64,000 nt of DNA, from contig CP068257.2 of the NCBI GenBank assembly GCA_009914755.4, positions 34,496,001-34,560,000 of the forward strand, read 5' to 3'. Numbering within the stretch: the stretch's first letter is position 1; every line of letters begins with the position of its first letter. The translations under genes and the position numbers were made by a program. This stretch comes from the human T2T-CHM13v2.0 reference genome, Homo sapiens. Of this stretch, positions 41,679 to 51,723 are shown one piece after another. Below the pieces are notes generated by a model. That model saw only the letters and a list, made by a program, of their open reading frames with translations. It was not told where the DNA came from and ran no database searches.

Positions 41679-43240
41679 TAAATTGAGTTTTTTAAATTAT
41701 GATTTACAAATGAATTTGTCAAAATTAAATTAAACCCCCCCACACGCACACACACCTGGAATCCTTTACAGATAGGTGGTATATGAATACAAGGCACAGA
41801 TTGTATGTGCATGGTGGCTTTGGCACAAACAGACTACTTCTTTTTTCAATGTTAAGTGTAAAGCAGTTCTTTCATCTCTGTTCAGTGCAGTGTTGAGTGT
41901 GACTAGGATTTGAAGAACCTAAAAAAAAAAAACTCACCTGCTTGCCATCTTCTTGTTTTTTTTTTTGTTGTTTTTTGGTTTTTGCTGGTTTTGTTTGCTG
42001 CTTTTGTAAAACCAGTTTATCATATTCTCATTAGGAAATCAATTTTCATGAAATTAATTTTTTTTCCTGCTAACTATGGCTCAATCTTTTCGTTTCTCTC
42101 TGCTTCTATCTTAAGACCATTCCTCAAATTGACCATGAGAGGATTTACATCTGGGGCACTTGGTATATGCCAAATGGAGACAAAATCAGAATCAGCAGCC
42201 TGGCTGGGCCACAGGTCCAGCATCCCAAGCTATTAAAATATTCTTAGTGTTTCCAGGGAAGTGATAGATCCACTTTGGAAGCTGATAATATACCCCTCCC
42301 CTAGAAACATGCATATACACAAAGTGTTCTAAACAACTTCCAGGTGCTCATGACCTCCCCCACCTCCCAAGCTCATTGACCACTGCCTCGCCTTCACGAA
42401 CTCCAGACCTGGTCTGAACATTTCTAAAGGACGCTCGGGAGTTAAAAGGAGCGAGGCCACTGCAGAAATGACAGCCTTCATCCACAAGTGGCCCACTTCG
42501 GGTTGGCTGGAGCCACAGCTGGGTGGGGACAGGGCCTGTGCTCAGGTGAGCACTGCCTACCGCGCACCCTCCAGGTGCGTCCTACCCTGAAGCGGTCGGA
42601 CTGGACCGTCTAGGTCCCAGCGCTCGAGAGGATGGCAGGCAGGGGCTGGTGATTGTCTGGAGATATGAATGCTTTCTAAGGTTGACGTCAAGGTCTCCTT
42701 CCTGAGCCACAGTCCACGTGATAAGCTCTGTCCAGGTAGAAATGATCTCACCTCTCCTGTCGCCCAGGGTCGGAAACCTGAGGCCCGTGCGGGCTGGGGC
42801 AACTTAGCGGGGGTCCCAAGCCCGCCGCGCCCCCTGCGCCCCAAACGTGTGTGGAGGGCTTGGACGTGGTCCAGAGGGAAAAGATGGGGTGAACCAGGTG
42901 CCGCGCACCCTTCGAGGAGCCCCCGCTTCTCCGTTTCTGTGAGTGACTCCAAAGCACCTCCGAGGGCCGACACACGCGCGGACGACCTTGGGCGGGCACT
43001 GACCAATGTCCCCTTCCACTCGGTTGTGTCGGGGGTCCCCAGGTGAGGCGCGAACGCCGCCCCGCTCACCTGTACGAGGCCTTTCCCGGAGCAGCCCGGC
43101 TACGAAGCGACACCCATGGCGGAGAAGCTAAGGAAGACTCCCGCTCCCTCACACCGCGGCTGAGGCGACTGAACCGCCCCAGTACGCCGGGGCCCTCCCC
43201 AAGCCCTGCTCCCAAGCCGAAGCCCCGCCCCCGCGTCTAA

Positions 43241-43640
43241 GGCCCACCTCCAGGCCCCGCCCCTGACCCCGACTCCGTGAGTCAAGCCTGGCCTTTCAGT
43301 CCAGCCCAGCCCGTCGAGGCCCCGCCCCTGTTGTTATGGCCCGCCTCCAGGCACCGCCCTTGATCCCACCTTCATGAGTCAGGCCCCGCCTTCCAGCCCA
43401 GCCCGGCCAGTCGAGGCCCCGCCCCTGTAGGTACAGCCCACTTCCAGGCCCCGCCCTTGATCCCGCCTCCTTCGGTCAGGCCCCGTCTTCTAGTTCCGCC
43501 CCGCCCGCGGAAACCCCGCCCCCGCGCGCCTATGGCCCACCTCCAGGTCCCGCCCCTGAGCCCGCCTCCAGGCGTCCAGCCCCGCCTTCCAGCCCCGCCC
43601 CAAGCGCCGAGGCCCGGCTTCCAGGCTCCGCCCCGACCCG
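43241..43640. repeat. Minisatellite: 4 tandem copies of a ~97-bp GC-box-rich unit (each with 3–4 CCCCGCCCC motifs)
   Basis: Units start GGCCCACCTCCAGGCCCCGCCCCTGA at 43241, GGCCCGCCTCCAGGCACCGCCCTTGA at 43338, GCCCACTTCCAGGCCCCGCCCTTGA at 43436, GGCCCACCTCCAGGTCCCGCCCCTGA at 43534; period 97–98 bp. Confidence 0.85.
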
Positions 43641-43797
43641 CGCGGTGGGGAAGAGCCGCTGCCGCTGGTTCTCCGGCTCTTCCTCGGCGGTTCTGGCTCC
43701 CGGCCGCGCCGCAGCCCTGCCCAGTCTCTCTCCCGCAGCCCGGAGGGCTCCTCCGCGCCGCACGTGAGCGCGCCCGCCAACAGGGCCACTGCCGCGG
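43640..43797 (+). other. Candidate non-coding first exon ending in a strong splice donor (possible DOP1B exon 1)
   Basis: GC-rich segment downstream of GC-box array, ends ...GCCACTGCCGCG|GTAAGTCGTGCC; next strong plus-strand acceptor/coding exon at 51560. Confidence 0.3.
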
Positions 43798-44809
43798 TAA
43801 GTCGTGCCTGCGCCCTGTCCGGCGTCCAGTCCTCAGCCGCTGGGCGAAGCCGGAGGAGCCGGGCGTCTCCTCCCCGCCGGCCCGCGGGTCCTTCTCCGGG
43901 TCCAGAGGGCTTGGGCGGCGCCGTGGGGCGGCCCGGGGTGCAGGTGGCTTACCGGCGCGCGGCCCGGGCCTGTGGCGCGCTCTGCTGCAGTGCGGGGGCG
44001 GAGAGCTCGGGGCCGGAGACCGGGAGGGCAGCGGGGAGACTGGGTGGGGTCCCCTAGGGTTACCCGACCCTGGCGCGGAGGATATGATGCCGGCCACGCC
44101 CTCGCCGAGCGGGGCGGCAGGTGCAGGTCCAGGGGTGGGTCGCGGCCCGCGCGCCCTCCCGGGGCCGGCCCACGACGAGACGCTCAGCCTTTGTTTGCTG
44201 GTGCCCTGGCTGGGGAGGAGGCTGGGGACGCAGACCTGTGAGAACTGAGGGCTTTCCTCGTTGGGGAAGACCCCAGTCTTCCAGCCAGTCCCCAGGAGAA
44301 GGGATCCGGGCCGCAGTGCGCGCTCTGCCAGCCTGGCCCCTGCGCCCTGCAGGGTTCCCGGCTGCTCGCGGGGACTGTTACCCGCAGTGTTGCCTTACAC
44401 TCGCGACTGCAGCCCCACAATTGGGAAGACTTTGCTAGGATTTTTTTGGTAAGGCGAGGGAAGACCGTCCCCCCGGCCCCACAAGTCTGCTGCCATTAGG
44501 TGGCTTAAATTTTTTCCAGTACAATTTAATTGCCACTTTGAAAGACCACATTCAAAACAGCGTGTCCCAGAGTTGATTAAGCCCATTGGTGATGAGTGTT
44601 TCTGTGCTGTGGACTAAGGATCATTATCAATTTTATTACTAATAGTACATATCTGTTATCTGTTGCTAAATGTTTTTGCTTATGTGGTAGGGTCACTGTC
44701 CTCATTTTCATCGAACTGAGAAATGTTCCTTCATACAGACATATTTACAGTGAACTTTTTTGGGATCTGGCAGTTGGTTTTTCTCTTGAACTTGTTTTTT
44801 TCTTTTTCT

Positions 44810-44833
44810 AAATTATTATTATTATTATTATTT
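44810..44833. repeat. (ATT)8 microsatellite
   Basis: attattattattattattattatt. Confidence 0.95.
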
Positions 44834-44835
44834 TA

Positions 44836-49913: not shown

Positions 49914-50222
49914 TGCCAGGCGCGGTGGCTCACGCCTGTAATCCCGGCACTTTGGGAGGCTGAGGTGGGCAGATCACGAGGTCAGGAGTTCAAGACCAGC
50001 CTGACCAACACGTGAAACCCCGTCTCTACTAAAAATACAAAAATTAGCTGGACATGGTGGCACGTGCCTGTAGCCCCAGCTATTTGGGAGGCTGAGGCAG
50101 GAGAATCGCTTGAACCCAGGAAGCAGAGGTTGCAGTGAGCCAAGATTGCGCCACCGCACTCCAGCTTGGTCAACAAGAGTGAGACTCTGTCTCAAAAAAA
50201 AAAAAAAAAAAAAAAGAAAGAA
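49914..50222 (+). mobile_element. Alu SINE (AluY-like) with TSD GAAAGTAGTGGTGG
   Basis: GCCAGGCGCGGTGGCTCACGCCTGTAATCCCGGCACTTTGGGAGGCTGAGGTGGGCAGATCACGAGGTCAGGAGTTCAAGACCAGCCTGACCAACACGTGAAACCCCGTCTCTACTAAAAATACAAAAATTAGCTGG; A24 tail; TSD both sides. Confidence 0.93.
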
Positions 50223-51023
50223 AGTAGTGGTGGCCTGGTGAAGATTGGATTGGGTCTGGAGTGATCGGAAATTGAAGTATGAGATTTCATGAAATTTTTA
50301 TAACTGTACTGGCCTGTAAATGAAAGACTCAAGCTTAAAGAACGTGTTGTACCTTCAGTTCAGTTTCTTCCATTTACCATATTTGCCTTTTTATTTGATT
50401 GACTACATCCAACTTGTTTAGCAATCTACCCAGCTAACCGCGTTCACTCACGTTTAACTATATAGCATTGCTCTGTATTTGTCTTTCCTTTCAGACTGAG
50501 CAGTACTGGTGAAATACTATTTGTCCTCATATATCAATTAGGATTGTGGTTGGCTATAACAGAAAACCTGATAGAACAGTGGCTTAAACAAATTAGCTGT
50601 TATGTGCAGAAAACATACACCAGACATTACAGCATCCGGGGTTGGCATGTGGTGCCTTCATCATGCCATCTGGGGCTGCAGGGGCTCTGTCGTTCCACTC
50701 AGCCATCGTTAGTTTGTGACTTTCGTGCATGTTTCATGACAGGTGCAAGATGTAGCTTCACTCCAACATCATGCCTTTGTTCTAGGCAGAAAGAGGAAGA
50801 AAGGAGGACAAAAGGCTTATGCCAGGAAGTCTGCCTCCTTTCCAACAGCCTTTTGACCCACAGCTTCTACTGACATCTCATTGTCAAGAGCTGTCACATG
50901 GCCACCTAGATGCAAGGGAGTCTGGGAATTACAGTGTTACCATGAACAAAACCAGTGCTCCCTTAGTACAGAAAAGGAGAACAAGGCATGTTGGGTAGAT
51001 GCCTGCCACACTTTAAATAAAAC

Positions 51024-51182
51024 AGCCAGGCATGGTGATACATCCCAATAGTCCCAGCTACTTGGGAGGCTGAGGTGGAAGGAAGGATCACTTGAGCTTA
51101 GGAGGTCAAGGCTGCAGTGACCCGTGATCGTGCCACTGCACTGCAGCCTGGGTGGCAGAGTAAGACCCTGCCTCCAAAAAAA
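51024..51182 (+). mobile_element. Alu partial (right arm)
   Basis: CAGCCAGGCATGGTGATACATCCCAATAGTCCCAGCTACTTGGGAGGCTGAGGTGG...CACTGCACTGCAGCCTGGGTGGCAGAGTAAGACCCTGCCTCC. Confidence 0.75.
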
Positions 51183-51559
51183 CATAAAAAGTTTAGAAAT
51201 GCCATATGATGGGAGGGGCCGTGCTCATTTAAAATTACCGGCTGGCAACAACATATAGTCTAGCAGCTTTGGAGCTTTGATCCTGGAATTAATTTTGTCA
51301 GTTACTTGGAGCCCTAGCACTTCTATGCTGTCTGCTCCTGTTTCCTGTTCTCCCCCAGAATCCACGAGGGCGGGAACTATTTATCTTTCATCTCCCACAG
51401 TGCCTGGCCCAGAAGCCTTGCTAAATATTTGAACAGGATTGCCCAGTGAGTTTGTGCACAGTTGTGTTTGTGGACACGTGTCTTCTGTAGCTCTGGGTTG
51501 GGAATGATTTGTATCCCCAAATGGCTCTCTCATTTGGTTATTTTTTGATTTGCTTTTAG

Positions 51560-51585
51560 ATACTTTTCTGCTGTGAGAATGTAAG
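51560..51585 (+). other. DOP1B: DOP1B 5'UTR portion of the first coding exon (exon begins at acceptor ttgcttttag|ATAC)
   Basis: Polypyrimidine tract ctctctcatttggttattttttgatttgcttttag immediately upstream; ATG at 51586. Confidence 0.6.
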
Positions 51586-51723
51586 ATGGATCCAGAAGAG
51601 CAGGAGCTCTTAAATGATTACAGATACAGAAGCTACTCTTCAGTGATTGAAAAGGCTTTGAGAAATTTTGAGTCCTCGAGTGAATGGGCGGATCTCATAT
51701 CTTCACTTGGCAAACTCAACAAG
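51586..51723 (+). CDS. DOP1B: DOP1B (DOPEY2) first coding exon: [46 protein letters not shown] (46 codons)
   Basis: ATG in good context (gtaagATGG); translation is the conserved N-terminus of Dopey-family proteins and to my recollection the exact start of human DOP1B, the chr21 gene immediately distal to CBR3; donor AACAAG|GTATGTAGG at 51723/51724. Confidence 0.8.

What the first reader, a model, noticed from the sequence alone, without database searches (positions are those of the whole stretch)
42450..51723. CpG island at 42.5–44.45 kb likely a bidirectional promoter, with a plus-strand GT donor that could splice to the DOP1B ATG exon 7.8 kb downstream
The DOP1B first coding exon (51560–51723) starts at a strong polypyrimidine/AG acceptor, so at least one non-coding exon must lie upstream. 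Between the CBR3 poly(A) site and 51.5 kb the only promoter-like sequence is this 2-kb island. It contains a consensus donor CGCG|GTAAGT at 43797/43798 just downstream of the GC-box array. From memory of the locus, the antisense lncRNA CBR3-AS1 starts about 10 kb distal to CBR3 on the opposite strand, which would put its TSS in the same island. The long Pro/Arg/Gly-rich ORFs on both strands here are GC-composition artefacts.
Basis: inference. Interest (0 to 1): 0.5.

Follow-up and report, generated by a model that had tools for sequence, protein, structure and literature searches.

The report
DOP1B / CBR3-AS1 shared CpG-island promoter

Summary
A CpG island (GC 0.70, CpG o/e 0.74) lies at about 42.5-44.45 kb and is the only one between the CBR3 poly(A) signal (33388) and the DOP1B ATG exon (51560-51723). 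The GTAAGT donor is real but starts at 43797, so the junction is 43796|43797, one base off.

- **CBR3-AS1:** a published full-length cloning primer maps to the minus strand starting at 43161. A qPCR primer maps to 43146-43127. A strong minus-strand donor (CAG|GTGAGC) follows base 43070.
- **DOP1B:** the published GRCh38 gene range starts 10,374 bp distal to CBR3 c.730 (rs1056892). That maps to about 43632, roughly 165 nt upstream of the donor and about 470 bp from the CBR3-AS1 5' end.
- **Between the two starts:** a 97-bp x3.9 tandem array carries 8 of the window's 12 CCCCGCCC boxes.
- **Conservation:** the donor segment is conserved in three rodent-like taxa, and the ATG-exon acceptor in six other mammalian sequences.

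No RNA data could be queried, so the 43796-to-51560 splice is inferred, not seen. Verdict: a known, ordinary bidirectional promoter. Low interest.

The parts
42751..44300 (.). Core of the CpG island.
   Evidence: GC 0.69-0.75 and CpG o/e 0.74-0.77; GC profile.
43070..43161 (-). CBR3-AS1 exon 1 (92 nt). The 5' end is at 43161 and the last exon base at 43070.
   Evidence: The full-length construction primer AGCCGCGGTGTGAGGGAGCG (PMC10988898) maps to 43161->43142. The qPCR primer GAGCGGGAGTCTTCCTTAGC (PMC12068319) maps to 43146->43127. The exon end is inferred from the donor.
43064..43072 (-). Minus-strand 5' splice site CAG|GTGAGC of CBR3-AS1 exon 1.
   Evidence: Read. PWM score 11.22 of a maximum 12.62, second best on the minus strand between 43200 and 41000. 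Use of this site is inferred.
43218..43600 (.). Tandem array of 97-bp units (3.9 copies, 77% matches) lying between the two start sites. It carries 8 CCCCGCCC boxes and two TGAGTCA motifs.
   Evidence: TRF; GC-box positions; TGAGTCA at 43278 and 43375.
43632..43796 (+). DOP1B non-coding exon 1, about 165 nt. The start is approximate.
   Evidence: The start comes from the GRCh38 gene range 36156782 (PMC11376248) minus rs1056892 at 36146408, which is 10,374 bp from c.730 at window 33258. The end comes from the donor. There is no ATG in this stretch.
43794..43802 (+). 5' splice site GCG|GTAAGT. The last exon base is 43796.
   Evidence: PWM score 9.37, the best in 43600-44500 and rank 4 of 478 GTs in 43500-51559. 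CGCCCGCC-N17-20-GTAAGTC is shared with L011-16, L017-19 and L021-22. In a 65-nt alignment 46-48 columns are identical, scoring above every control segment from the same island.
43797..51559 (+). Inferred DOP1B intron 1 (7763 nt).
   Evidence: Follows from the donor and the acceptor. The orthologous interval is about 3.2-3.3 kb in the rodent-like contigs.
51560..51723 (+). DOP1B exon 2, the first coding exon. ATG is at 51586.
   Evidence: The acceptor and the 26-nt leader are conserved in six other mammalian sequences.
33106..33161 (-). CBR3-AS1 exon 2, overlapping CBR3 exon 3. The donor AAG|GTGAGT after 33106 is shown. The acceptor at 33161 is inferred.
   Evidence: The reverse primer AGTTTTC|CTTATGGGGTGTCCA (PMC12068319) joins 33106 to 20105 on the minus strand. 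Donor PWM score 12.33. A further primer maps to 33146-33129.

Best explanation
The island is a TATA-less, GC-box-rich CpG-island promoter that fires in both directions.

- **Leftward (minus strand):** it starts CBR3-AS1 at about 43161. Exon 1 runs 43161->43070 and is spliced from CAG|GTGAGC to exons that overlap CBR3.
- **Rightward (plus strand):** it starts DOP1B at about 43632. A non-coding exon 1 of about 165 nt ends at 43796 (GCG|GTAAGT). It is spliced over a 7.76-kb intron to the acceptor at 51560, 26 nt upstream of the DOP1B ATG.
- **Between them:** the two start sites are about 470 bp apart and flank a 97-bp tandem array of Sp1-type GC boxes. That array presumably recruits the transcription machinery for both genes.

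What is shown: the island, the motifs, both splice-site sequences, the position of the CBR3-AS1 5' end and the 33106->20105 junction (from published primers), the position of the annotated DOP1B gene start (from published coordinates), and conservation of the DOP1B donor and acceptor.

What is inferred: actual use of the 43796->51560 junction, the absence of intervening exons, and shared regulation of the two genes.
For: - **Island:** it is the only island in the interval.
- **GC boxes:** 8 of 12 window matches lie between the two starts, against 1.07 expected.
- **TATA:** no TATA[AT]A occurs in 42400-44500.
- **CBR3-AS1:** the construction primer begins at 43161 on the minus strand and the qPCR primer maps to 43146-43127. 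The junction primer proves that the minus-strand transcript model continues 33106->20105.
- **DOP1B start:** GRCh38 range 36156782-36294274 and rs1056892 at 36146408, with c.730 at window 33258, give a start at about 43632.
- **Donor:** PWM 9.37, best in the island. The donor segment is conserved above island background in three rodent-like taxa, where it lies 3.2-3.3 kb upstream of the ATG exon.
- **Acceptor:** conserved in six other mammalian sequences, with an in-frame upstream stop, so the exon cannot be a first exon by itself.
Against: - No transcript, CAGE or RNA-seq data could be queried, and the spliced 25-mer was not found in JGI metagenome contigs. That result is uninformative.
- The window is not perfectly collinear with hg19. 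It is 175 bp shorter between CBR3 c.11 and c.730, so the mapped start of 43632 carries an uncertainty. Tandem repeats lie between the anchor and the start: the 97-bp array, and a 334-bp Alu pair at 33446-34061.
- The published coordinate is a gene-level start, not necessarily that of the main transcript.
- Other donor-like sites exist in the island: TTG|GTAAGG at 44449 scores 7.79 and CAC|GTGAGC at 43764 scores 6.88.
- The conserved taxa are probably closely related to one another. The one other mammal contig (L002) stops about 280 bp short of the donor.
- A published Ensembl range for CBR3-AS1 (36,130,371-36,276,226) shows that this gene also has far more distal starts.
Confidence: 0.85

Rival explanations
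1. DOP1B starts in the island, but exon 1 ends at a different donor (for example TTG|GTAAGG at 44449, CAC|GTGAGC at 43764 or GGG|GTGGGT at 44135). Alternatively it reaches the ATG exon through one or more extra non-coding exons in 44.5-51.5 kb.
For: Several donor-like sites exist in the island. Stronger PWM donors exist deeper in the interval: 46076 scores 9.77, 49532 scores 9.67 and 46248 scores 9.46. TTTTTTTGGTAAG at 44440-44452 is also conserved in L002.
Against: The 43797 donor is the first strong one after the mapped start and gives a typical first exon of about 165 nt. It is the only GTAAGT in the island and is the site conserved in the rodent-like taxa.
Confidence: 0.1
2. A second, island-independent DOP1B start lies immediately upstream of the ATG exon, at about 51.39 kb. 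From my memory only, the older RefSeq DOPEY2 model began at hg19 37,536,839, which maps to about 51391. On this view the island is not the only promoter.
For: Only my recollection of the old gene coordinate, mapped with the offset derived. A weak-to-moderate donor-like site CCA|GTGAGT at 51446 is listed.
Against: The 51.0-51.5 kb region has GC 0.43-0.49 and no island-like composition. The acceptor at 51560 is conserved in six other mammalian sequences, as expected for an internal exon. Such a 5' end is what an unspliced or truncated cDNA clone would give.
Confidence: 0.1
3. The island drives only CBR3-AS1, and DOP1B starts elsewhere.
For: Direct primer evidence exists only for CBR3-AS1.
Against: The published DOP1B gene start lies 10,374 bp from rs1056892. 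It would take an indel of more than 800 bp to move it out of the island. A conserved plus-strand donor is present. There is no other island before the ATG exon.
Confidence: 0.03

Closest known systems
Mammalian bidirectional (divergent) CpG-island promoters, in which a protein-coding gene is paired head-to-head with a lncRNA less than 1 kb away
   Same: The start sites are head-to-head about 470 bp apart inside one CpG island. There is no TATA box. There are multiple Sp1-type GC boxes. A short non-coding first exon is followed by a strong GT donor on each side.
   Different: There is no perfect GABP/ETS site (CCGGAAG) and no NRF1 or YY1 consensus. The GC boxes sit in a 97-bp x3.9 tandem array that the rodent-like orthologues lack. 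The lncRNA partner is also antisense to the neighbouring gene CBR3.
Current public annotation of DOP1B (for example NM_001320714.2; GRCh38 chr21:36156782-36294274) and CBR3-AS1
   Same: The gene start and the lncRNA 5' end both map into this island.
   Different: Nothing detectably different. I could not load the transcript models themselves, so exon boundaries are inferred from the sequence.

Membership tests
CpG island (Gardiner-Garden and Frommer criteria) | Length over 200 bp, GC over 0.5, CpG observed/expected over 0.6 | tested here: met
   42450-44450 has GC 0.70 and o/e 0.74. The core 43301-44300 has GC 0.748 and o/e 0.770.
Bidirectional promoter | Two start sites on opposite strands, head-to-head, less than 1 kb apart | tested here: met
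   The CBR3-AS1 5' end is at 43161 (-) from a cloning primer. The DOP1B gene start is at about 43632 (+) from published coordinates. The gap is about 470 bp. The DOP1B position assumes collinearity with GRCh38.
Bidirectional promoter | TATA-less and rich in GC boxes | tested here: met
   No TATA[AT]A in 42400-44500. Eight CCCCGCCC boxes lie between the starts, against 1.07 expected in the whole window.
Bidirectional promoter | GABP/ETS, NRF1 or YY1 consensus motifs, which are typically enriched | tested here: not met
   No CCGGAAG/CTTCCGG, GCGCAYGCGC or GCCATNTT. Only five degenerate CTTCC[AG]G sites were found. The rodent-like orthologues do have CTTCCGG. This feature is typical of the class, not required.
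Bidirectional promoter | Both directions are transcriptionally active from shared elements (CAGE, H3K4me3, reporter assays) | not testable with these tools
   No expression or chromatin data are available.
U2-type GT-AG intron after a non-coding first exon | Consensus 5' splice site at the end of the exon | tested here: met
   GCG|GTAAGT scores 9.37 of a maximum 12.62. For comparison the ATG-exon donor scores 9.63. The PWM frequencies were recalled approximately, so they are good for ranking only.
U2-type GT-AG intron after a non-coding first exon | Polypyrimidine tract plus AG acceptor at the next exon | tested here: met
   ttattttttgatttgcttttAG|A at 51560, conserved in six other mammalian sequences.
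U2-type GT-AG intron after a non-coding first exon | The junction is observed in RNA | not testable with these tools
   The protein database held only genomic exon-plus-intron read-through ORFs and no spliced cDNA. The junction 25-mer was absent from JGI contigs.
U2-type GT-AG intron after a non-coding first exon | The splice site is conserved in orthologous loci | tested here: met
   GTAAGTC with its flanks is conserved in L011-16, L017-19 and L021-22. Alignment scores of 19, 12 and 12 exceed the control maxima of 8, 6 and 8. The taxa are unidentified and probably closely related.

The most novel reading that the evidence does not exclude
The 97-bp x3.9 tandem array of GC-box and TGAGTCA modules at 43218-43600 sits exactly between the two start sites and is absent from the rodent-like orthologues. 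It may be a lineage-specific, possibly copy-number-variable expansion that sets the output or balance of DOP1B and CBR3-AS1 transcription in a dosage-sensitive chromosome 21 region.
Probability: 0.1. Interest if true: 0.3.

Novelty: already known. Interest (0 to 1): 0.08.

Why it matters
It matters little beyond annotation hygiene. It confirms that DOP1B has a non-coding first exon in a CpG island shared head-to-head with CBR3-AS1. Perturbing that island by methylation, CRISPRi or deletion, as is done in the many CBR3-AS1 cancer studies, would therefore be expected to hit DOP1B as well. It also shows that a sequence-only reader can recover a promoter and first-exon structure correctly to within one base.

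Tried and rejected
- **Spliced DOP1B cDNA in the protein database:** I queried the 46-aa exon. All 78 hits were genomic exon-plus-intron read-through ORFs of 47-81 aa from other vertebrates, and none was spliced.
- **Exact search for the predicted exon1/exon2 junction:** the 25-mer gave 0 hits in JGI metagenome contigs, which is uninformative.
- **Published DOPEY2 promoter MSP/ChIP primers (PMC10243067):** the supplementary tables are held only as images.
- **Full-text search for remembered gene coordinates:** this mostly returned PubMed ids. Only 36156782 gave a real hit.
- **Searches pairing CBR3-AS1 with DOPEY2 or DOP1B, 'bidirectional', 'chr21' or 'promoter':** no paper described the promoter.
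- **Look-up of the human exon ORF with wrong coordinates:** this failed with an error.
- **Contigs of a carnivore- or ungulate-like mammal (L001-L004):** they stop about 280 bp short of the donor.
- **First anchor value:** I initially used 33255 for c.730. The stop-codon count showed the GTG codon is at 33258, and I corrected it.
- **Real coding in the island ORFs:** rejected, because there were no Pfam hits. No Rfam family matches in 40-53 kb.
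Full report
**What the window is.** tblastn with recalled probe sequences places the three CBR3 coding exons on the + strand. The ATG is at 22218, exon 2 at 24824-24940, and exon 3 ends at the stop codon at 33360-33362. AATAAA is at 33388. The first coding exon of DOP1B lies at 51586-51723 with 100% identity. Published human primers map with zero mismatches, so this is the human chr21 CBR3/DOP1B locus.

**Checking the observation.**
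- The interval 42450-44450 has GC 0.70 and CpG o/e 0.74 with 180 CpGs. The window averages are 0.47 and 0.33.
- Between the CBR3 island (21.8-23.45 kb) and 60.3 kb it is the only island-like stretch.
- The single GTAAGT in 42-45 kb begins at 43797.
- The ATG exon is as described. The acceptor is ttgcttttAG|A at 51559/51560, an in-frame TGA lies at 51574-51576, the ATG is at 51586, and the donor AAG|GTATGT is at 51723/51724.
- A tandem array of 97-bp units (3.9 copies) spans 43218-43600. It holds 8 of the 12 CCCCGCCC matches in the whole window, all on the + strand. Shuffles give a mean of 1.07 and none of 100 reaches 12.

**CBR3-AS1 starts in the island.**
- PMC10988898 lists primers used to clone full-length CBR3-AS1. 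The forward primer AGCCGCGGTGTGAGGGAGCG maps to the minus strand at 43161->43142.
- An independent qPCR forward primer (PMC12068319) maps to 43146->43127.
- Its reverse primer is split. AGTTTTC matches + strand 20099-20105 and CTTATGGGGTGTCCA matches 33106-33120. This is the minus-strand junction 33106->20105, with donor AAG|GTGAGT and acceptor CAG|G.
- Just downstream of the 5' end, on the minus strand, lies CAG|GTGAGC with last exon base 43070. Its PWM score is 11.22 of a maximum 12.62. Exon 1 is therefore most likely 43161->43070 (92 nt).
- One caveat: a published Ensembl range for the gene (GRCh38 36,130,371-36,276,226) shows that other isoforms start much further distal.

**The DOP1B gene start maps into the island.**
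- PMC11376248 gives DOP1B as GRCh38 chr21:36156782-36294274.
- rs1056892 (CBR3 c.730G>A, V244M) is at GRCh38 36146408 and at hg19 37518706.
- Counting back from the stop codon, the GTG codon for V244 begins at window 33258.
- The gene start is thus 10,374 bp distal, at about window 43632. That is 32 nt after the last GC box of the array (which ends at 43600), about 165 nt upstream of the GTAAGT donor, and about 470 bp from the CBR3-AS1 5' end.
- Only an indel larger than 800 bp could move it out of the island.
- The window is 175 bp shorter than hg19 between c.11 (22228; hg19 37507501) and c.730. A 169-bp tandem repeat at 31343-31717 is a plausible site for this difference. The exact start is therefore approximate.
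- From memory only, the RefSeq CBR3-AS1 end at hg19 37,528,605 would map to 43157. That is 4 nt from the primer-defined 43161, which argues for collinearity up to the island.

**The donor and the acceptor.**
- I scored donors with an approximate 9-mer donor matrix whose frequencies I recalled from published compilations, so it is suitable for ranking only. GCG|GTAAGT scores 9.37.
- That is the best of all GTs in 43600-44500; the next is 7.79, at 44449. It ranks 4th of 478 GTs in 43500-51559. The ATG-exon donor scores 9.63.
- The region mapped as exon 1 contains no ATG.

**Comparative evidence.**
- The 46-aa exon retrieved 78 genomic read-through ORFs from other vertebrates.
- Contigs from three mammalian protein variants (L011-16, L017-19, L021-22; species unknown, rodent-like) carry a CpG island 3.2-3.3 kb upstream of their ATG exon.
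- All of them contain CGCCCGCC-N-GTAAGTC, as the human sequence does at 43771-43803.
- A 65-nt alignment around the donor gives 46-48 identical columns. The scores of 19, 12 and 12 exceed every control segment drawn from the same island, whose maxima are 8, 6 and 8.
- A stricter local alignment of the whole exon is only marginally above shuffles (37 against a maximum of 35 for L017, and not significant for L011). So it is the donor-proximal block that is conserved, rather than the whole exon.
- A contig of another mammal (L002) has the island's distal shoulder in the orthologous position but ends about 280 bp short of the donor.
- The acceptor and the 26-nt leader of the ATG exon are conserved in six other mammalian sequences.
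- CBR3-AS1 exon 1, in contrast, is not alignable to the rodent-like contigs. Its score equals the shuffle mean.

**Other checks.**
- No Rfam family reaches threshold in 40-53 kb.
- No TATA[AT]A, NRF1, YY1 or perfect ETS consensus occurs in 42.4-44.5 kb.

**Mechanism.** The simplest account is a TATA-less CpG-island promoter whose GC-box array lies between two divergent start sites. Each start site is followed by a short non-coding exon and a strong donor.
- Shown: the sequence features, the CBR3-AS1 5' end and one of its splice junctions (through primers), the location of the annotated DOP1B start, and conservation of the DOP1B donor and acceptor.
- Inferred: use of the 43796->51560 junction, the absence of intervening exons, and shared regulation. 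No RNA or chromatin data could be queried.

**Verdict.** The structure corresponds to current public annotation, so it is already known and of low interest.

Noticed in passing
window 51579-51588: A minimal start-stop uORF (ATGTAA) ends 1 nt before the DOP1B start codon (AATGTAAGATGG). ATG plus an immediate stop codon is kept in 5 of the 6 other mammalian sequences: ATGTAA in four and ATGTGA in L005. L017 has ATGTAC instead. It may modulate DOP1B translation.
   Followed up: partly
window 43218-43600; L011 876-944; L017 955-1050: The 97-bp x3.9 tandem array of GC boxes includes TGAGTCA at 43278 and 43375. It has no counterpart in the rodent-like orthologues, which carry only short 13-31-bp GC-box repeats. 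The array looks like a lineage-specific expansion and could be a VNTR.
   Followed up: partly
window 44117-44131; L002 47; L011 1231; L017 1333; L021 479: GCAGGTG[C/G]AGGTC, which contains a CAGGTG E-box, occurs once in the 64-kb window. It is present in DOP1B intron 1 about 140-320 nt after the donor in human and the three rodent-like taxa, and also in L002, whose contig does not reach the donor. It is a conserved intronic element of unknown role.
   Followed up: partly
window 43725-43739: An acceptor-like TCTCTCTCCCGCAG|C lies inside the mapped DOP1B exon 1. It is conserved in the rodent-like contigs as CTGTCTCCCGCAGCC. It could be a promoter-proximal motif or an acceptor for upstream-initiated transcripts.
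   Followed up: no
window 22228-33258, especially 31343-31717: The window is 175 bp shorter than hg19 between CBR3 c.11 (rs8133052) and c.730 (rs1056892). A 169-bp Alu-derived tandem repeat (2.2 copies, 94% matches) in CBR3 intron 2 is a candidate site for a copy-number difference.
   Followed up: partly
window 22227-22229 and 33258-33260: This haplotype carries CBR3 codon 4 as TAC (Tyr, the rs8133052 A allele) and codon 244 as GTG (Val, the rs1056892 G allele).
   Followed up: yes
window 33129-33146 (-) and 19954-19971 (+): In PMC11319989 the primers labelled GAPDH map perfectly to CBR3-AS1 exons. The primers labelled CBR3-AS1 have no match in the window, and from my knowledge they look like GAPDH sequence. 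The labels appear to be swapped in that paper.
   Followed up: partly
window 28404-28423, 20105, 18914-19974: Published reagents imply at least two CBR3-AS1 3' structures. The cloned isoform ends at 28404, in CBR3 intron 2. The other has an exon starting at 20105 that extends to at least 18.9 kb. si-CBR3-AS1#1 of PMC7448412 has no match in the window with up to 2 mismatches.
   Followed up: partly
window 42683-42690, 42715, 43003, 43761: A perfect palindromic CRE (TGACGTCA) is at 42683. CACGTG E-boxes are at 42715 and 43761; the second overlaps the weak donor-like site CAC|GTGAGC. A CCAAT box is at 43003. The 42683, 42715 and 43003 sites lie downstream of the CBR3-AS1 start in its first intron.
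   Followed up: no
window 16901-17650 and 21801-23450: There are two further island-like stretches. The second is the CBR3 promoter and first exon. The first lies about 1.3 kb beyond the most distal mapped CBR3-AS1 reagents (18.9 kb) and was not examined.
   Followed up: no
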